Sequence record: ON286972
Length of the DNA stretch: 64,000 bases
Direction: 5' to 3' (one strand)
Source of the DNA: Escherichia phage A4
The position numbers and the translations under genes are program-made. Shown here one piece after another: positions 28,258 through 53,152 of this stretch (positions are counted from its first letter, which is position 1; the number at the start of each line of letters is the position of its first letter). The notes beneath the pieces were generated by a model that made no database searches, had not been told where the DNA came from, and saw only the letters and a program-made list of their open reading frames with translations.

Positions 28258-28869
28258 ATGTCTAAATATCATGTTTATTATGTAACCAAATTGAGTTTAC
28301 TAGATGAACTCAATCATACTAGTACCAAAATGAAACGTTATACTTATAATGGTATTACTTTCAGATACTTTCCACAAAAAGTACTAACATTCGTTAAGAA
28401 TTGTAAGTGCATTGCTTGTGGCATCGAGGCTACAGAAGTTCGAATCGAACGTTCCAACTGTAGTGATCCGGTATATGGTAAACCGCATTTAAATGTGTAT
28501 GCAGTATGTGGTCTTTATGAAGTTATGATGACTGTAGATCATAATCATCTTGCATCTAAAGGTGGTGCTGATTTGGAGTCAAACTTTAATACAATGTGTG
28601 CGAGATGTAATCAGTTGCGTTCAAATAAAACTGAAACGGTTGATGAATTCCTTGAGAAAGTCAAAAACCGAAATCTACTTGAAGAACATATGAATCGTTA
28701 TTTCAATAAGATTGAGAAGGAAAGTAAACGTCCTACACCAGAAATGCTCGAAGAACGTAGATTGCGTCAAGAGCTATGGGATAACGATCATCTGTGGCAT
28801 GTTCGTGAGTACGGGCGACACATGAAAGCATTAAAAAAGGCACAAAAGCTGTTGGATAAACATGAGTAA
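28258..28869 (+). CDS. HNH endonuclease
   Basis: VDHNHLASKGGADLESNFNTMCARCNQLRSNK (HNH core) plus upstream CxxC. Confidence 0.6.
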   Translation: MSKYHVYYVTKLSLLDELNHTSTKMKRYTYNGITFRYFPQKVLTFVKNCKCIACGIEATEVRIERSNCSDPVYGKPHLNVYAVCGLYEVMMTVDHNHLASKGGADLESNFNTMCARCNQLRSNKTETVDEFLEKVKNRNLLEEHMNRYFNKIEKESKRPTPEMLEERRLRQELWDNDHLWHVREYGRHMKALKKAQKLLDKHE

Positions 28870-37982: not shown

Positions 37983-38012
37983 AAAGGGACAGATTAATTC
38001 TGTCCCTTTTCT
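37983..38012 (+). terminator. rho-independent terminator
   Basis: GGGACAG-loop-CTGTCCC then TTTT. Confidence 0.55.
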
Positions 38013-38027
38013 TATGGAGTTTTAATT

Positions 38028-38441
38028 ATGAATTATGCTTGGATGGAAATTGTAAAATCTCTCGTATCAACACATGATGTTGATTTACCAGATAGTCTAG
38101 TGTTTAATAGATGGTACTATCCAAATCCAGAGGACTGTAGGGTTGGAATTGGATTTTTTATTAATGATAAATCTAATTTGATTGGATTAATTGAAGATAT
38201 GAAATCCAACGCAGTATCAATCTCTATTGAGTTTAATGAAGACCACATAAAATACTACGACAATAAAATGGCAGAAGATGATGATGTTATAATCCCTGTA
38301 GATATAGACGAAGCTTCATTTTTTCAGTTATCATTGATTTATGATCTATCTAACATTACTTATGATAATGTGAAAGACCTTTTTATATTGTACAATAAAA
38401 TGTATAATTACTTTTTAAGACCTTTTTATATTGTACAATAA
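38028..38441 (+). CDS. hypothetical protein (C-terminus encoded by tandem repeat)
   Basis: 137-aa ORF; last ~20 codons lie inside the 43-bp tandem duplication. Confidence 0.4.
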   Translation: MNYAWMEIVKSLVSTHDVDLPDSLVFNRWYYPNPEDCRVGIGFFINDKSNLIGLIEDMKSNAVSISIEFNEDHIKYYDNKMAEDDDVIIPVDIDEASFFQLSLIYDLSNITYDNVKDLFILYNKMYNYFLRPFYIVQ

Positions 38442-38460
38442 AATGTATAATTACTTTTTA
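38375..38460 (+). repeat. perfect 43-bp tandem direct repeat (2 copies)
   Basis: AGACCTTTTTATATTGTACAATAAAATGTATAATTACTTTTTA at 38375-38417 and again at 38418-38460. Confidence 0.85.
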
Positions 38461-38476
38461 TAATGGAGGTATTGTA

Positions 38477-38662
38477 ATGGAATATACAATAGGTGCAATA
38501 GTATGTATCGCAGCATTATTAGGTGGCATTGGTGTGATGATTTACTTTGATGCAGAACCCAGTACTGAAATGGGTACAACCCTGGAACTCAAACCTGGCA
38601 TTAAGGTGAACGACTCTTACTGTTACGATCCACATAGTAATAAGTATGTGATTTGTTTATGA
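38477..38662 (+). CDS. small membrane protein
   Basis: N-terminal hydrophobic helix. Confidence 0.35.
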   Translation: MEYTIGAIVCIAALLGGIGVMIYFDAEPSTEMGTTLELKPGIKVNDSYCYDPHSNKYVICL

Positions 38663-39069
38663 AAAAGTTTAATATTAAACCGATATTTGATGCTATCGAA
38701 ATTAAATTGAAAGACCAACGAAAACCCGATGGTACTGGTTTATTCTTTAGTTTAGATAGAACCTACGTTGAAACACATGTATCAAGTTTTGATAGAACTG
38801 GTAATCTTTTCATCCGTTCATATAACATGTTTTATAGTGAAGATGTTTTTATGATAGATATCACTTTAGATGAAAGTATAGGTTTGATGTACATTGAAGA
38901 TGTTCAATCAAACGATCAACGAAACGGCACACTTCCTATTGGTGCTACCGAGGAAGAGTTTATGCAATATCAGTTCATTGATGATACCTTTGGTATTGAC
39001 TTTGTGACATATCAGAGTATAATGCGTGTATACGAACAGTATGAGGATTACGTAATTGGACGTTACTAA
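38653..39069 (+). CDS. hypothetical protein, paralog A
   Basis: C-terminal ..EEEFMQYQFIDDTFGIDFVTYQSIMRVYEQYE parallels next gene. Confidence 0.45.
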   Translation: MFMKKFNIKPIFDAIEIKLKDQRKPDGTGLFFSLDRTYVETHVSSFDRTGNLFIRSYNMFYSEDVFMIDITLDESIGLMYIEDVQSNDQRNGTLPIGATEEEFMQYQFIDDTFGIDFVTYQSIMRVYEQYEDYVIGRY

Positions 39070-39478
39070 AATACCCAAATTCAACGAAACGTTAAAGTAC
39101 TTTTCTGAACAAGAGTTCAGTACTGAAAGACGTGGTTTAGTCACATACAACCAATATCGCGTAATGTATACTAACCAGTTACAAGGAACAGTACGTATTA
39201 AAATCCGTAATGCATATGATGATGGTGATGAATTATTAATTATACTAAGAAAAAGTAAGATAGAACTACAATACCATAGATTTGATACTTCCGATGAGTT
39301 TGCATGGAATGTGTTAGAAAAGAAAGTAGGTTCATTGCCTGTAGTTGATGATGGACCTGAAACACTTGATCAGTACATGTTCATTGATGATACATTTAGT
39401 ATTGACTATTCTTCATTTCAGTATATACTATCTATACATAAACAATATGAATCCCGCTTGCGTGACAGATTAATTTAA
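39056..39478 (+). CDS. hypothetical protein, paralog B
   Basis: C-terminal ..LDQYMFIDDTFSIDYSSFQYILSIHKQYE parallels previous gene. Confidence 0.45.
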   Translation: MDVTKIPKFNETLKYFSEQEFSTERRGLVTYNQYRVMYTNQLQGTVRIKIRNAYDDGDELLIILRKSKIELQYHRFDTSDEFAWNVLEKKVGSLPVVDDGPETLDQYMFIDDTFSIDYSSFQYILSIHKQYESRLRDRLI

Positions 39479-39489
39479 TTGGAGGCTTT

Positions 39490-39612
39490 ATGATTGCAAT
39501 GTTAGAAGAAGATTGGGGTGTTTCTGAACAAGGAACCGACGAATATCAAGTTCCAGAATACAAGCCAAAAGGCTTCTGGGAAAGTCTGCGTGATTGGTTG
39601 ATGGGAGAATAA
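39490..39612 (+). CDS. small hypothetical protein (40 aa)
   Basis: GGAGG 5 nt upstream; below track cutoff. Confidence 0.2.
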   Translation: MIAMLEEDWGVSEQGTDEYQVPEYKPKGFWESLRDWLMGE

Positions 39613-39621
39613 GATTAGAAA

Positions 39622-40689
39622 ATGTATAAATTTTATTTTAATGAAAATAACGAGAAGGTATATTTCCATGAAGAATTAGGTATGCGTTTCGAATGGATGC
39701 GTCCCGAAGATTTATCACCAAAATTAATTAAAACATCAAAAACACCTAAAGAACATTTTGATGAAATAATAGAAAAAGGATATAATATTTTAGGATTTGC
39801 TATAACATCAAGTGATGAATGGAAATCTAGTTTTACAAGAACTGTTGTTGAAAAAGATGGTATTATATATACAAAAAGAAATATAAATGATATAAAAACG
39901 AAAGGTATGAAATATATCATTGGGAAATATGACAATGAAAATTATAGATATTATCTTTATAAGACTTCAAAAAGTCTAATGACTGGTGAATGTGAATTAC
40001 TTTTAGAACAACCAATAATTAAAGATAAAAGAACCAAATTAACTTATAAATGCTTAAAATGTGGTCACGTTGATGAAATGGAAATTAGTAATATACAAAG
40101 TGGTCAGGGTTGCTCTATTTGTCGATTTGAAAAAACCAGATTAGCACACGCATTCACCACCGCTGAATTTGTTGAACGAGCAAAAGAAATTCATGGTAAT
40201 GTATATAACTATTCAAAAGTCATCTACATTAATAGTAGCACTCATGTTGAAATAATTTGTAAAAAACATAATAATTCTTTTTATATCATTCCAAATTTTC
40301 ATATAGCAAAAAATAAAAATCAAGGTTGCCCAATATGCTCATCTGAACATACTGAATCCAGAGCTAGTAGAGAAATAACACGTTTTTTAATTGAAAATGG
40401 TATAAAATTTAATAAAGAACAAACATTTAGTGACTGTAAAAATAAAATGTTATTAAGATTTGATTTTTATTTGGTTGATTATGATATTTGTATTGAGTAT
40501 GATGGTAAACAACATTTTGAGAAATCACCTCATTGGGGTGGAGAAGATAAATTGAAAAACATCAAGGATAACGATACTATAAAGACACAATATTGTGAAA
40601 AGAATTTTATTAAATTAATACGTGTAACATATTATGAAGACCACTTAACTGTATTAAAAAAACATCTTTCAGAGGAAGGTATATTATGA
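39622..40689 (+). CDS. Zn-ribbon protein with C-terminal endonuclease-like domain (possible free-standing homing endonuclease)
   Basis: multiple CxxC pairs; C-terminal RFDFYLVDYDICIEYDGKQHF resembles PD-(D/E)xK/DUF559-type motif; gene markedly more AT-rich than neighbours. Confidence 0.35.
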   Translation: MYKFYFNENNEKVYFHEELGMRFEWMRPEDLSPKLIKTSKTPKEHFDEIIEKGYNILGFAITSSDEWKSSFTRTVVEKDGIIYTKRNINDIKTKGMKYIIGKYDNENYRYYLYKTSKSLMTGECELLLEQPIIKDKRTKLTYKCLKCGHVDEMEISNIQSGQGCSICRFEKTRLAHAFTTAEFVERAKEIHGNVYNYSKVIYINSSTHVEIICKKHNNSFYIIPNFHIAKNKNQGCPICSSEHTESRASREITRFLIENGIKFNKEQTFSDCKNKMLLRFDFYLVDYDICIEYDGKQHFEKSPHWGGEDKLKNIKDNDTIKTQYCEKNFIKLIRVTYYEDHLTVLKKHLSEEGIL

Positions 40690-41798
40690 AAAAGTATTTG
40701 GTGGGCGGCTATGTGAGGGACCGTTTAATGGGTATTCGTACAAAAGACAAAGATTATGTCATTGTCGGTGCTACCGAATCCGATATTAAGTACTTACAAA
40801 GTATTGGCTATAAGCAAGTAGGTAAGGATTTTCCCGTGTATCTAAGTCCAGAGGGTAATGAGCACGCATTGGCCCGTACCGAACGTAAAACTGGTACTGG
40901 TTACGGTGGCTTCGAAGTGAATACTAAAGGCGTGACACTAGAGCAAGATCTATACAGAAGGGATATTACGGTAAATAGCATAGCGTATGATCCAGTACTG
41001 CAAATTCACATCGACCCATACGGTGGTAAAGCTGATATCAAGAATAAAGTACTACGCCATGTATCCGAGCACTTCAAAGAAGATCCATTACGTGTATTAC
41101 GTCTAGCTCGCTTTGCTACGCGTTATTCTGATTTCTCTATACACGAGACTACTGAAGCACTTGCAATCGATATGGTAGCGTCTGGTGAGCTAAATCACCT
41201 TGTTCCAGACCGTGTTTATGTTGAATTTGAAAAAGCACTGTCAGAAGAAAAGCCAGCTAAGTTCCTTAAAACACTAAGTAAGTTGGGTTACTATGAAAAA
41301 GCATTTAATGCAACATTAACCAAAAAGTCATTGGAACTCATTGATCATATCTCTGATAATTGTACTGAAGCATATAAGCCATATTTCTTATGGTCTGTGC
41401 TTCTTGAGAAAGAAGAAGTTGGTGAGGATTCAGTACTGAATGGTGCTATTAAAATGCCCGTTAAGTACGTTAAATTCAGTAATTACATCAAACGTTTCCG
41501 TGATGATATCAAGGCATTCCGTAAAAAGACCCCAAATGAAATGGGACAATTATTACTGGATATGAATATCAAGAATAACGGCGGTGAAGAATTCCTTTAC
41601 AAAGTACTGGAATATTTTATTCTACGTAAAGAGATTGATTTAGACCTTGAAGATTTAATCATTAAGGTATATGATCGTTACACTGATGTAGTACTTCCAG
41701 ATATTCAACAACTGGTAAAAGACGGTGAGTTAGAAGCATCTGAAATCCGTGATTTTGTTTCAGATTTACGTTGTGAAGCAATTCAACAAATGTTTTAA
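40686..41798 (+). CDS. tRNA nucleotidyltransferase (CCA-adding enzyme) family protein
   Basis: N-terminal GGYVRDRLMG..DKDYV head-domain motif. Confidence 0.65.
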   Translation: MKKYLVGGYVRDRLMGIRTKDKDYVIVGATESDIKYLQSIGYKQVGKDFPVYLSPEGNEHALARTERKTGTGYGGFEVNTKGVTLEQDLYRRDITVNSIAYDPVLQIHIDPYGGKADIKNKVLRHVSEHFKEDPLRVLRLARFATRYSDFSIHETTEALAIDMVASGELNHLVPDRVYVEFEKALSEEKPAKFLKTLSKLGYYEKAFNATLTKKSLELIDHISDNCTEAYKPYFLWSVLLEKEEVGEDSVLNGAIKMPVKYVKFSNYIKRFRDDIKAFRKKTPNEMGQLLLDMNIKNNGGEEFLYKVLEYFILRKEIDLDLEDLIIKVYDRYTDVVLPDIQQLVKDGELEASEIRDFVSDLRCEAIQQMF

Positions 41799-41884
41799 AA
41801 CTCTGGGACAAGAGAACGACTTCTGATATAATAATTGTATCTGGGCATCATTGCTATTAAGAGATAAGATTATGCGTTATAGTT

Positions 41885-42301
41885 GTGGCATTATATTTTA
41901 TCGTGATGGTCAGATACTTGTTGGACACACAACACGGACAGAAGCATTGGGATTTACCAAAAGGTAAAACCGAGGGCAATGAAACATTTGCTGAAGCTGC
42001 TGTTCGTGAGTGCTATGAAGAAACAGGATTTGAGATTGATGAAAAGGATCTTCTCTTATTAGGTGATGTATCATACAGGAAAGGGAAAAGATTAGTTTTA
42101 TTTTTCTATACAGCTAAATACAAACCCGAACCGGATGAACTGAAGTGTAACAGTACTTATACCAATCGATATGGTAAAAGCCATCCAGAATTGGATAAAT
42201 TCATGTACATTGATGTTCAAGATTGTCAAAAGTATTTGACCGAACGAATGTGTAACAGTATAATTAAAGCTGTTAAATTGTTTCAAAAAAATAAAGGATA
42301 G
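41885..42301 (+). CDS. Nudix hydrolase (apparent frameshift at 5' end)
   Basis: perfect Nudix box GKTEGNETFAEAAVRECYEETGF; expected N-terminal strand MRYSCGIIFYRDGQILVGH is in the -1 frame starting ATG 41872. Confidence 0.5.
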   Translation: MALYFIVMVRYLLDTQHGQKHWDLPKGKTEGNETFAEAAVRECYEETGFEIDEKDLLLLGDVSYRKGKRLVLFFYTAKYKPEPDELKCNSTYTNRYGKSHPELDKFMYIDVQDCQKYLTERMCNSIIKAVKLFQKNKG

Positions 42302-42305
42302 TTAT

Positions 42306-42554
42306 ATGAAAGTGAAAATTTATGGTCGCACGACTGGTTGTAATTTCTGTGATACAGCAAAAGCAATTTGTGAGAACAATTCATTTGAAATGGATTTTAT
42401 CGATGTGGTTTCTGAAGGTATTGATGGTGCTAAACTATCAGAAATTTGCGGTGAGCCAGTTCGTCAAGTTCCACAAATTTTCGTAAATGATGAGTATGTT
42501 CCTGGTGGATGTACTGGTTTTGTTAACGGGCTAAAAGAAGGTCGCTGGAACTAA
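42306..42554 (+). CDS. glutaredoxin/thioredoxin-fold protein (NrdC-like)
   Basis: CNFC active-site motif near N-terminus, ~82 aa. Confidence 0.55.
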   Translation: MKVKIYGRTTGCNFCDTAKAICENNSFEMDFIDVVSEGIDGAKLSEICGEPVRQVPQIFVNDEYVPGGCTGFVNGLKEGRWN

Positions 42555-42793
42555 TGAATATCGATAAGGTATCATCACGAGCACGTGCATTGGCTGACAG
42601 TTTGGGAGTTAAATTTGAAACTCCAGATATCAACCAATCAAAACAAAAAGCTCAAAAGAAAATTCATGAAATGAAAGAATACACATCAAGACGTGAAGAA
42701 TACGATGCTGCTATTTCTCACATTATTGAAGTGTTTAGTAAAGATGATATTTTAGCATTTATTGCTTCACATGAGGTTGTAAAAAACCCCTAA
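42554..42793 (+). CDS. hypothetical protein
   Basis: 79-aa ORF, ATGA overlap. Confidence 0.4.
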   Translation: MNIDKVSSRARALADSLGVKFETPDINQSKQKAQKKIHEMKEYTSRREEYDAAISHIIEVFSKDDILAFIASHEVVKNP

Positions 42794-42828
42794 ATAATAT
42801 TGAAGAACAACAAGTTCTTCTTAACAAT

Positions 42829-43086
42829 TTGGGAGATACTATTATGCTCAGTTTTCGTGAACAATTAGCAAAAGGTCAATTTCAGACTAAAGCTCAAACA
42901 AATATTCCTAAAAAATCTGCATTCTTAGGAACAATTACGGAAGATGGTTATTGTGACTTCAATCCACCAGAAGATAGCTGGTATATTGAAAAAGACACAA
43001 AACGTAGTAATAGACTTCACAAAAGTACAATAGCAAGAAAGCATCGAAAAGAATTGAAGAAAATTCGTTTCGGTGAAGAAGAATAA
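42829..43086 (+). CDS. hypothetical basic protein
   Basis: 85-aa ORF. Confidence 0.4.
   Translation: MGDTIMLSFREQLAKGQFQTKAQTNIPKKSAFLGTITEDGYCDFNPPEDSWYIEKDTKRSNRLHKSTIARKHRKELKKIRFGEEE

Positions 43087-51038: not shown

Positions 51039-53152
<2,114 letters not shown>

What the first reader, a model, noticed from the sequence alone, without database searches (positions are those of the whole stretch)
39622..40689. AT-rich Zn-ribbon/endonuclease-like gene, possible free-standing homing endonuclease
This gene is conspicuously richer in A/T (AAA, ATA, AAT codons) than its neighbours. It has several CxxC pairs and a C-terminal ..DFYL..DICIEYDGKQHF block like PD-(D/E)xK/DUF559-type endonuclease cores. 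It is inserted just upstream of the CCA-adding enzyme gene. With the HNH gene (28258-28869) and a TnsA-like ORF in the tail block (52133-52588), the window holds three candidate selfish nucleases.
Basis: partly seen in the sequence, partly recalled or inferred. Interest (0 to 1): 0.4.

Follow-up and report, generated by a model that had tools for sequence, protein, structure and literature searches.

The report
Mobile homing endonuclease gene beside cca
This is a selfish nuclease gene that has recently copied itself into the same spot, just in front of the tRNA CCA-adding enzyme gene, in several otherwise diverged jumbo E. coli phages; it is a clear example of a known kind of element, not a new one.

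Summary
The ORF 39622-40689 (+, 355 aa) is real. At 26% G+C it is the most AT-rich of 75 ORFs in the window. It has two zinc-binding modules and a C-terminal Vsr-like PD-(D/E)xK nuclease domain with an intact E-D-x-H-D residue set.

The window is an Asteriusvirus (121Q/PBECO4-like jumbo coliphage), and the protein is identical to phage A4 gp535. About 34 of 35 related phage genomes lack the gene. In them the small upstream gene is separated from cca by 0-1 nt. Four diverged genomic backgrounds carry a 1073-bp insert with identical boundaries.

The gene is 97-100% identical between backgrounds whose flanks are about 55-88% identical. Its dS is 0.016-0.076, against 0.8-1.1 for the adjacent cca. 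In three backgrounds the near-identical tract extends about 315 bp into cca, which looks like co-conversion. A 59%-identical homologue sits at the same position before cca in a far more distant phage.

The architecture, CapR/DUF4379/DUF723-like Zn modules plus an EDxHD/Vsr-like domain, was described in 2025 as a large outgroup of EDxHD homing endonucleases. The two other "selfish nucleases" it cites are conserved core genes. This is a new member of a known kind, of modest interest. No cleavage activity or target site has been shown.

The parts
39613..40685 (+). Inserted segment of 1073 bp that is absent from HEG-less relatives. It replaces the 0-1 nt spacer between the stop of the 121Q-gp538 homologue and the cca ATG.
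   Evidence: Junction alignment with 121Q, UE-S1, WPEC5 and Ecwhy_1 (empty) and with TH47, L011 and L015 (filled). The boundaries GGAATAA|GATTAGAAAATG ... GGTATATT|ATGAAAAAG are identical in all filled sites.
39622..40689 (+). Homing endonuclease ORF, 355 aa. It is 100% identical to 'hypothetical protein A4_535', Escherichia phage A4.
   Evidence: All six sampled alleles are intact ORFs with unchanged catalytic and zinc ligands.
39622..40011 (+). N-terminal region (aa 1-130) of unassigned fold. It is shared only with close homologues and Asteriusvirus paralogues, and is presumed to be an extra DNA-binding region.
   Evidence: Low model confidence (pLDDT 42-66). No Pfam hit and no repeat-module match. 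It is covered by PHROG 559 and by 33%-identical paralogues in JP4, Sharanji and G17.
40018..40125 (+). Zinc module 1 (aa 133-168): C144-x2-C147 ... C164-x2-C167. It is a partial CapR/DUF4379-like treble-clef module.
   Evidence: Pfam DUF4379 E 2e-7, 31.6 bits against a cut-off of 24.5; CapR E 0.002. Module HMM i-E 0.011. C144, C164 and C167 are invariant or nearly invariant in 109 homologues.
40156..40338 (+). Zinc module 2 (aa 179-239): a full DUF723/CapR-like module of about 60 aa, FVERAKEIHGNVYNYSKV...C213-x2-H216...C236-x2-C239.
   Evidence: Module HMM built from the family alignment gives E 2.6e-25. C213, C236 and C239 are invariant and H216 is at least 90% conserved. DUF723 is precomputed for this protein.
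40354..40656 (+). Vsr-like (EDxHD-type) PD-(D/E)xK nuclease domain (aa 245-345). Putative catalytic residues are E249, D281, (E292) D294, H298, D318 and K321.
   Evidence: AF2 pLDDT 92, pTM 0.84. Foldseek gives Vsr prob 0.99. The residues are at least 90% conserved in 109 homologues. The alignment to I-Bth0305I E170/D196/N208/H213/D222 is collinear, with the His offset by one residue.
40672..40679 (+). Shine-Dalgarno-like GAGGAAGG inside the 3' end of the endonuclease ORF. It replaces the GGGGGA that precedes cca in empty sites. Its role in keeping cca translated after insertion is an inference.
   Evidence: Sequence read directly. The equivalent GAGGG is conserved in the distant homologue's locus L007.
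40686..41000 (+). The 5' part of cca, about 315 bp, that travels with the endonuclease gene (co-conversion tract) in the window, TH47 and L015 backgrounds.
   Evidence: Window versus TH47 shows 8 mismatches in 1393 bp over 39607-40999, against about 15-45% divergence outside that span. The same tract appears with L015 but not with L011.
39490..39612 (+). Small upstream gene (40 aa, homologue of 121Q gp538). Its last codons form the left half of the presumed homing site.

Best explanation
The gene is a free-standing homing endonuclease gene. It is not inside an intron or intein. It has recently spread among 121Q/PBECO4-like jumbo coliphages into one fixed site, the junction between a 40-codon gene and the CCA-adding enzyme gene.

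The protein has an uncharacterised N-terminal region and two CapR/DUF4379/DUF723-type zinc-finger modules. These presumably read the DNA target. A C-terminal Vsr-like (EDxHD-type) PD-(D/E)xK nuclease domain presumably cuts it.

The inferred mechanism is as follows. When a phage carrying the gene co-infects a cell with one that lacks it, the enzyme cuts the empty allele at or near the gp538/cca junction. The break is repaired by recombination using the gene-carrying genome as template. This copies in the 1073-bp insert together with a variable stretch of the neighbouring cca gene.

The insert ends with its own ribosome-binding sequence, and its stop codon overlaps the cca start. So cca expression is probably preserved and the insertion is close to neutral.

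The following are shown: the ORF, the domain content, the conserved catalytic residues, the insertion polymorphism with identical boundaries, the far younger age of the gene than its flanks, and the co-conversion-like tract. The following are inferred: DNA cleavage activity, the position of the cut, dimerisation to make a double-strand break, and the role of the zinc modules in recognition.
For: Distribution: in megablast of 38000-43000, only TH47 covers 100%. About 34 other Asteriusvirus and Salmonella relatives cover 79% or less and lack the 1.07-kb segment. In tblastn, one phage record has at least 95% identity and all others are below 60% and lie at other loci.

Junctions: empty sites read ...GGGGGAATAA[C/T]ATGAAAAAG or ...GGAATGATATGAAAAAG. 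Filled sites share identical boundaries in four backgrounds: the window (= A4), TH47, L011-L014 and L015.

Age: identity is 97-100% over the gene against about 55-88% in the flanks. dS for the gene is 0.016-0.076, against 0.82-1.10 for cca. dN/dS is 0.25-0.5, and all alleles are intact.

Co-conversion: the near-identical tract 39607-40999 between the window and TH47 starts within 7 nt of the insertion point and runs about 315 bp into cca.

Foreign composition: G+C is 26.3%, the lowest of 75 ORFs.

Same site in a distant lineage: a 59%-identical homologue (P0002) lies directly before cca with the same ATGA overlap. There the upstream neighbour is HPF plus a terminator, and the locus is about 67% identical at the nucleotide level.

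Fold and residues.

Family: PHROG 559, 9084 and 7140. There are 291 BFVD structural matches at E<=1e-3, including proteins named 'Homing endonuclease' and 'Group I intron protein'. This architecture is described as a large outgroup of EDxHD/Vsr homing endonucleases in PMC12350094.
Against: No cleavage activity, target site or mobility has been measured for this protein or for any member of its subfamily.

Foldseek E-values against the PDB are only about 0.02, although probabilities are 0.99. The I-Bth0305I structure 3R3P is not among the top 50 matches. Sequence and profile searches of the PDB gave nothing at E<=10. hhalign to I-Bth0305I gives E 0.0038 but a probability of only 8.8%.

The four differences between the window and TH47 alleles are all non-synonymous, so constraint on this young clade is weak.

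The gene has no obvious ribosome-binding site at normal spacing (read). No promoter or terminator signal exceeds the shuffled controls.

The cluster of silent changes in cca codons 6-11 is not statistically above background. It is also absent from the L011-type carrier. So the cut position remains open.
Confidence: 0.85

Rival explanations
1. The gene is a co-opted or domesticated relative of homing endonucleases. For example, it could be a nuclease used to exclude or degrade competing phages or satellites, or a CapR-like DNA-binding regulator. It would move between phages as an accessory gene by ordinary recombination, not by its own cutting of the empty site.
For: The zinc modules are of the CapR/DUF723 type. 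CapR itself is a satellite-encoded repressor derived from homing endonuclease DNA-binding domains, and ICP1 Odn is a nuclease co-opted against a satellite (PMC10055350). No activity data exist. The very recent alleles differ only by non-synonymous changes.
Against: The full catalytic residue set is conserved. The insertion point is identical to the nucleotide in four backgrounds, and is the same relative to cca in a lineage only about 67% identical. The near-identity tract extends from the insertion point into the adjacent conserved gene, as expected for break repair. There is no PADLOC defence-family match.
Confidence: 0.08
2. The gene is ancestral and was deleted in most relatives. On this reading the polymorphism reflects loss, not gain.
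For: A homologue occupies the same position before cca in a distant phage. So the association of this gene family with cca is old.
Against: Alleles in backgrounds whose cca genes differ by dS 0.8-1.1 differ among themselves by dS of only 0.016-0.076. The G+C content is 9 points below the genome mean. Empty sites are clean, with no remnants. Loss would have to be independent and exact in about 34 genomes.
Confidence: 0.03
3. The gene encodes a Vsr-type DNA mismatch-repair or other housekeeping nuclease of the phage.
For: The best solved-structure matches include E. coli Vsr. JGI names many homologues 'very-short-patch-repair endonuclease'.
Against: The gene is absent from almost all close relatives. 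Its multi-zinc-finger architecture is unlike Vsr. [quoted passage not shown]
Confidence: 0.01

Closest known systems
[quoted passage not shown]
   Same: Both have modules of about 60 aa related to Pfam CapR, DUF4379 and DUF723, followed by a C-terminal Vsr/EDxHD-like nuclease domain of about 100 aa. Both are phage-borne, and many members are annotated only as hypothetical proteins.
   Different: The published examples sit inside group II (and group I) introns, whereas this one is free-standing and intergenic. This protein has only one full and one partial module, not three to five, plus a 130-aa N-terminal region with no assignable domain. No member of the group has been characterised biochemically.
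I-Bth0305I, prototype of the EDxHD family (PDB 3R3P; PMC3239194)
   Same: Both have a C-terminal Vsr-like nuclease domain with the composite E...D...x...H...D motif. The alignment is collinear, with the His offset by one residue: E170~E249, D196 (DFYL)~D281 (DFYL), IEVNG~IEYDG, H213~H298, D222~D318. Both are phage-encoded mobile nucleases with an N-terminal DNA-binding region and a C-terminal catalytic domain.
   Different: I-Bth0305I is encoded in a group I intron in recA. It uses NUMOD/helix-turn-helix motifs and has no zinc. Sequence similarity to this protein is marginal (hhalign E 0.004, prob 8.8%; no HMMER hit to the PDB). 3R3P is not among the top Foldseek matches.
Free-standing homing endonucleases of T4-type phages (for example Hef, which Taylor et al. 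place in the Vsr-like family; SegG and MobE, from my own knowledge)
   Same: All are intergenic genes next to a conserved gene and are polymorphic between related phages. They spread by cutting the allele that lacks them, with co-conversion of flanking markers. The Hef assignment is from PMC3239194; the rest is established knowledge of T4 Seg/Mob genes.
   Different: Seg and Mob enzymes use GIY-YIG or HNH catalytic domains. Relatedness to Hef was not tested here because no Hef sequence was at hand. Mobility here is inferred from comparative genomics only.
T5orf172/GIY-YIG-type homing endonucleases with CapR/DUF723 zinc-finger arrays (vibriophage ICP1 and others; PMC10055350)
   Same: Both use the same class of repeated zinc-finger DNA-binding modules. 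Both are located beside essential or conserved genes and bound regions of genetic exchange between phages.
   Different: The nuclease domain is different: T5orf172 there, Vsr-like here.

Membership tests
CapR-like Zn-finger + EDxHD/Vsr-like HEG outgroup (PMC12350094) | N-terminal array of modules of about 60 aa related to CapR/DUF4379/DUF723 | tested here: met
   DUF4379 E 2e-7, above the Pfam cut-off, at aa 133-168. A full module at aa 179-239 has E 2.6e-25 against a family-derived HMM. Among 109 homologues, 103 match DUF4379, 88 DUF723 and 24 CapR. There are only about 1.5-2 modules here, against 3-5 in the published examples.
CapR-like Zn-finger + EDxHD/Vsr-like HEG outgroup (PMC12350094) | C-terminal Vsr/EDxHD-like nuclease domain of about 100 aa | tested here: met
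   AF2 domain model with pLDDT 92. Foldseek gives Vsr 1vsr/1cw0 prob 0.99, TMq 0.50-0.55, and also PvuRts1I, AbaSI, RAP-domain proteins and the R2 RLE. The E-values of about 0.02 are weak.
EDxHD homing endonucleases (I-Bth0305I) | Composite catalytic motif E...D...x...H...D, equivalent to Vsr E25, D51, H64, H69, D97 | tested here: met
   E249, D281, D294 (x), H298 and D318 are each at least 90% conserved in 109 homologues. They are collinear with I-Bth0305I E170, D196, N208, H213 and D222 in hhalign, with the His offset by one residue.
EDxHD homing endonucleases (I-Bth0305I) | Detectable sequence homology to the prototype's catalytic domain | tested here: inconclusive
   hhalign of the family profile against I-Bth0305I gives E 0.0038 and probability 8.8%. 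phmmer and hmmsearch against PDB sequences (which include 3R3P) gave no hit at E<=10. 3R3P is not in the Foldseek top 50.
EDxHD homing endonucleases (I-Bth0305I) | N-terminal NUMOD / helix-turn-helix DNA-binding region, no zinc | tested here: not met
   This protein has Cys4 and Cys3His zinc modules instead. The prototype is described.
EDxHD homing endonucleases (I-Bth0305I) | Homodimer that makes a double-strand break next to the insertion site | not testable with these tools
   This needs biochemistry. Comparative data only bound the likely cut region.
Homing endonuclease gene (functional definition) | Presence/absence polymorphism at one precise site among related genomes | tested here: met
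   four filled backgrounds with identical boundaries, and about 34 empty ones.
Homing endonuclease gene (functional definition) | The gene is much younger than its flanks, and adjacent markers are co-converted | tested here: met
   dS is 0.016-0.076 for the gene against 0.82-1.10 for cca. A 99.4%-identical tract spans 39607-40999 within about 83%-identical genomes.
Homing endonuclease gene (functional definition) | Site-specific cleavage of the allele that lacks the gene | not testable with these tools
HNH endonucleases (the label given to homologues by PHROG 559 and RefSeq) | HNH / beta-beta-alpha-metal catalytic motif | tested here: not met
   No HNH family appears among the Pfam hits at E<=1. 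The catalytic domain is Vsr-like. The 'HNH endonuclease' name on homologues is a mislabel.
DUF559 / DUF2726 (Vsr-like PD-(D/E)xK Pfam families) | Pfam model match above the gathering score | tested here: inconclusive
   DUF2726 gives 13.9-17 bits against a cut-off of 24.7 for this protein. Of 109 homologues, 15 match DUF2726, 5 PvuRts1I-like_N and 4 DUF559 at E<=0.01.

The most novel reading that the evidence does not exclude
This locus may be the most tractable natural example of the still uncharacterised clade of CapR-like zinc-finger / Vsr-like homing endonucleases. The enzyme would be currently active. Its homing site would be the translational stop/start junction in front of cca. It would have tracked that one site through phage lineages as far apart as about 67% nucleotide identity. 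Its homing would drag up to a third of the cca gene between jumbo phages, creating mosaic cca alleles. If so, it would give the first defined target and mobility system for this large clade, and a test of whether the modular zinc-finger arrays set target specificity.
Probability: 0.55. Interest if true: 0.4.

Novelty: new member of a known kind. Interest (0 to 1): 0.3.

Why it matters
The result gives a function to a protein deposited as 'hypothetical' (phage A4 gp535). It also corrects the 'HNH endonuclease' label carried by many homologues.

It documents, with clear comparative evidence, recent horizontal spread of a Vsr-like homing endonuclease gene among jumbo coliphages. That spread exchanges part of the adjacent cca gene. 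This is relevant to how mosaicism arises in phages that are being considered for therapy.

The subfamily is large: thousands of proteins according to PMC12350094, and 291 BFVD structural matches here. None has been characterised biochemically. A member with a defined empty and filled site is therefore a practical entry point for experiments. The finding does not change any concept.

Tried and rejected
PDB sequence searches found nothing at E<=10, either with the single protein or with a 109-sequence profile.

The IMG/VR viral contigs gave no close relative by back-translated peptide patterns. They also gave no exact match to the filled left junction.

Rfam found nothing in 38500-42500, so there is no intron or other known RNA around the gene.

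The promoter/terminator scan gave 21 promoter-like sites against 16.1 +/- 4.3 in shuffles, and one terminator-like site against 1.4. This is uninformative.

PADLOC gave no defence-family match.

I first thought the six silent substitutions in cca codons 6-11 of the window and TH47 marked the protected target. They destroy the best local pseudo-palindrome, CGGTTACG-TC-CGTGACCG at cca +21..+38. However, the substitution density there (5 of 18) is not clearly above the about 15% background. Gene-less alleles also vary in these codons. And the L011-type carrier keeps the gene-less-like sequence. I therefore treat it as a hypothesis only.

No paralogue of the gene exists elsewhere in the 64-kb window.

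The supplementary sequences of the I-Bth0305I paper are not held. I recovered the protein from the phage 0305phi8-36 record instead; the first 50-kb slice did not contain it.

My positional dN/dS values for TH47 cca are invalid, because a 3-nt indel shifts the register. I do not use them.
Full report
**1. The observation**

The ORF is at exactly 39622-40689 on the + strand: ATG start, 355 codons. Its G+C content is 26.3% (GC3 15.2%). This is the lowest of the 75 plus-strand ORFs of at least 100 aa in the window (mean 35.4%, sd 3.2, z = -2.8). The gene immediately downstream is 37.8%.

The protein has CxxC at residues 144, 164 and 236, and C213-x2-H216. It carries the block RFDFYLVDYDICIEYDGKQHF at 279-299. 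The downstream ORF 40686-41798 is a CCA-adding enzyme (Pfam PolyA_pol E 1.8e-18). The stop codon of the finding overlaps the cca ATG (ATGA).

**2. Where the window comes from**

Megablast places the window in the genus Asteriusvirus, the 121Q/PBECO4-like jumbo coliphages of about 350 kb. The protein is 100% identical to 'hypothetical protein A4_535 [Escherichia phage A4]'.

**3. Insertion polymorphism**

For the query 38000-43000, only phage TH47 covers 100%. About 34 other relatives cover 79% or less and lack about 1.07 kb. tblastn finds one phage record with at least 95% identity. All others are below 60% and lie at other loci.

In 121Q, UE-S1, WPEC5, Ecwhy_1 and CMSTMSU, the 40-codon gene (121Q gp538) is followed by cca after 0-1 nt. 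The sequence reads ...GGGGGAATAA[C/T]ATGAAAAAG or ...GGAATGATATGAAAAAG. In the window a 1073-bp segment (39613-40685) sits between them.

Exact-protein look-ups gave further carriers. L009 and L010 are the same phage as the window (100% identity). L011-L014 and L015 are different backgrounds. In L011 and L012 the gene order upstream also differs: the gp535-537 block is missing. All filled sites have the same boundaries to the nucleotide.

**4. The gene is far younger than its surroundings**

Between the window and TH47, identity is about 0.5-0.9 in the flanks but 99.4% from 39607 to 40999 (8 mismatches in 1393 bp). That span is the whole insert plus the first 315 bp or so of cca. The tract begins within 7 nt of the left boundary. 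The same pattern holds with L015. With L011 the gene is about 97% identical, and identity drops right after the gene.

By Nei-Gojobori, dS of the gene is 0.016 (window-L015) and 0.076 (window-L011). dS of cca is 0.82 and 1.10 for the same pairs. The gene's dN/dS is 0.25-0.5. All six alleles are intact, and none of the zinc ligands or putative catalytic residues is changed.

This excludes vertical descent with repeated loss. It is the classic signature of homing with co-conversion of flanking markers.

**5. Same site in a distant lineage**

The nearest other homologue is P0002 (59% identity, 353 aa, from two sequencing runs). It also lies directly before a cca gene, with the same ATGA overlap and the same GGTATATT-ATGAAAAAGTA junction. 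There, however, the upstream neighbour is the HPF gene followed by a terminator hairpin, and the whole locus is only about 67% identical to the window. Its G+C is again 26%, against 38% for cca. So the association of this endonuclease lineage with the start of cca is old as well as recently active.

**6. What the protein is**

- **Profile hits.** Pfam gives DUF4379 (treble-clef zinc finger) above its cut-off at aa 133-168, and sub-threshold CapR and DUF2726. PHROGs gives phrog_559 (E 9e-51, named 'HNH endonuclease'), 9084 ('homing endonuclease') and 7140 ('intron encoded nuclease').
- **Family consensus.** A search of 5.8 billion proteins returned 524 homologues. The family consensus is a repeated module of about 60 aa, FIxxAxxIHGxKYDYSxVxYxNxxTKVxIICxxHGxFxQxPxxHLxGxGCPxC. 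It is followed by LPFDFYLPxxNxCIEYDGxQHFE...D.IK...LIRI.
- **Modules in this protein.** There is one full module (aa 179-239, E 2.6e-25), one partial module (aa 135-167) and a 130-aa N-terminal region with no assignable domain and low model confidence.
- **Conserved residues.** E249, D281, E292, D294, H298, D318 and K321 are at least 90% conserved.
- **Structure.** The AF2 model of aa 240-355 has pLDDT 92. Its best PDB matches are E. coli Vsr (prob 0.99, TMq 0.50-0.55), PvuRts1I/AbaSI, RAP-domain mitoribosomal proteins and the R2 restriction-like endonuclease. All of these are Vsr-like PD-(D/E)xK folds. The E-values are only about 0.02.
- **Pfam across homologues.** Of the 109 homologues, 15 match DUF2726, 5 PvuRts1I-like_N and 4 DUF559.
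- **Viral structures.** Against predicted viral structures there are 291 matches at E<=1e-3. They include proteins named 'Homing endonuclease', 'Group I intron protein' and 'DUF2726/DUF559 domain-containing', and many from giant viruses.

**7. Comparison with known families**

Taylor et al. defined the EDxHD family from I-Bth0305I. Its residues E170, D196, N208, H213 and D222 correspond to Vsr E25, D51, H64, H69 and D97. It has N-terminal NUMOD/HTH motifs and no zinc. It is a homodimer with a footprint of about 60 bp, and it cuts next to the intron insertion site. The authors also place phage Hef-type free-standing enzymes in the family (PMC3239194).

I recovered I-Bth0305I from the phage 0305phi8-36 record and aligned it to the family profile. 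hhalign gives E 0.0038 and probability 8.8%. The alignment is collinear at every motif, with the His offset by one residue: E170~E249, DFYL~DFYL (D196~D281), IEVNG~IEYDG, H213~H298, D222~D318. HMMER searches of PDB sequences found nothing.

So the catalytic domain works like an EDxHD/Vsr domain. It is a distant relative, and its DNA-binding part is different.

This exact combination was described in 2025 for endonucleases inside phage group II introns. Those have three to five domains related to CapR, DUF4379 and DUF723, plus a C-terminal domain distantly related to EDxHD/Vsr. [quoted passage not shown] The same zinc-finger modules are known from T5orf172 homing endonucleases and from the satellite repressor CapR (PMC10055350).

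The present gene is therefore a new, free-standing member of a known but biochemically uncharacterised kind. The 'HNH endonuclease' label on homologues is not supported, since there is no HNH domain.

**8. Mechanism and open points**

Shown:
- domain content;
- conserved catalytic residues;
- precise polymorphic insertion;
- recent spread;
- co-conversion-like tract.

Inferred:
- the enzyme cuts the empty gp538/cca junction region;
- the break is repaired from the carrier genome.

The insert brings a GAGGAAGG sequence 6 nt before the cca ATG (40672-40679). This replaces the GGGGGA of empty sites. The equivalent sequence is conserved in the distant locus. It plausibly keeps cca translated.

The cut position is not settled. 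The tract between the window and TH47 starts at the insertion point and runs into cca. This fits a cut at the junction or inside the 5' part of cca.

The best local pseudo-palindrome of the empty allele is CGGTTACG-TC-CGTGACCG at cca +21..+38. Five silent changes destroy it in the window, TH47 and L015. It is kept in the L011-type carrier, and the substitution density there is not significantly above background. A site spanning the junction, which the insertion itself would disrupt, is therefore my preferred reading. I hold it with only moderate confidence.

No RNA family or intron is present. There is no informative promoter or terminator signal, and no defence-system match.

**9.

ORF 28258-28869 has an HNH domain and ORF 52133-52588 a TnsA-like N domain. 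Both regions are covered at 97-100% in essentially all relatives at 77-83% identity (at least 80% coverage in 33 of 35 and in 35 of 50 records). The second is annotated as head completion nuclease or head closure protein. Neither shows the polymorphism expected of a selfish element.

**10. Verdict**

Confidence that this is a homing endonuclease gene of the CapR-like zinc-finger / Vsr-like type that has recently moved between Asteriusviruses is about 0.85. Confidence in the details of cutting is much lower. Novelty: new member of a known kind. Interest: modest (0.3).

Noticed in passing
window 38374-38460: There is a perfect tandem duplication of a 43-bp unit (2.0 copies, 100% match). It spans the 3' end of ORF 38028-38441 and the following spacer. 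The homologous 121Q gene (gp534) is 33 nt shorter, so the duplication may be specific to this phage.
   Followed up: partly
window 28258-28869: This ORF has an HNH domain (Pfam HNH E 5e-5, above its cut-off). It is present in 33 of 35 related records at about 77% identity with full coverage. It behaves as a conserved gene, not as a polymorphic homing endonuclease.
   Followed up: partly
window 52133-52588: This ORF has a TnsA-like N-terminal nuclease domain (E 5e-16). It lies in the tail/head-completion block, is conserved in all relatives at about 82% identity, and is annotated there as head completion nuclease or head closure protein. It is a structural/packaging gene, not a selfish element.
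   Followed up: partly
window 38653-39478: Two adjacent ORFs of 138 and 140 aa (homologues of 121Q gp536 and gp537) look like paralogues of each other, with shared C-terminal ...Q(Y)xFIDDTF(G/S)ID(F/Y)... motifs. Neither has a Pfam hit. This block is unusually variable between relatives (window versus TH47 identity 0.51-0.76), and it is missing altogether from the L011/L012 background.
   Followed up: no
L001 (phage TH47) and other Asteriusvirus records: Related jumbo phages carry several members of this endonuclease family at other loci: 6 places in TH47, and 1-7 in others. One example is a 33%-identical full-length paralogue annotated 'homing endonuclease' among hypothetical genes in JP4. 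The 64-kb window holds only the one copy.
   Followed up: partly
L007 / L008 (Logan SRR19631087, SRR19631088): These contigs come from an unnamed, more distant jumbo phage, about 67% nucleotide identity to the window. The gene order is lysozyme - HPF - terminator hairpin - endonuclease - cca, without the five small genes found in Asteriusviruses between HPF and cca.
   Followed up: partly
window 41123-41182 and 41303-41359 (inside cca): Short stretches of cca are much more divergent than the rest of the gene in all pairwise comparisons (identity 0.55-0.73). There is a 3-nt indel at about 41313 relative to TH47. This suggests a variable surface loop or a mosaic boundary.
   Followed up: no
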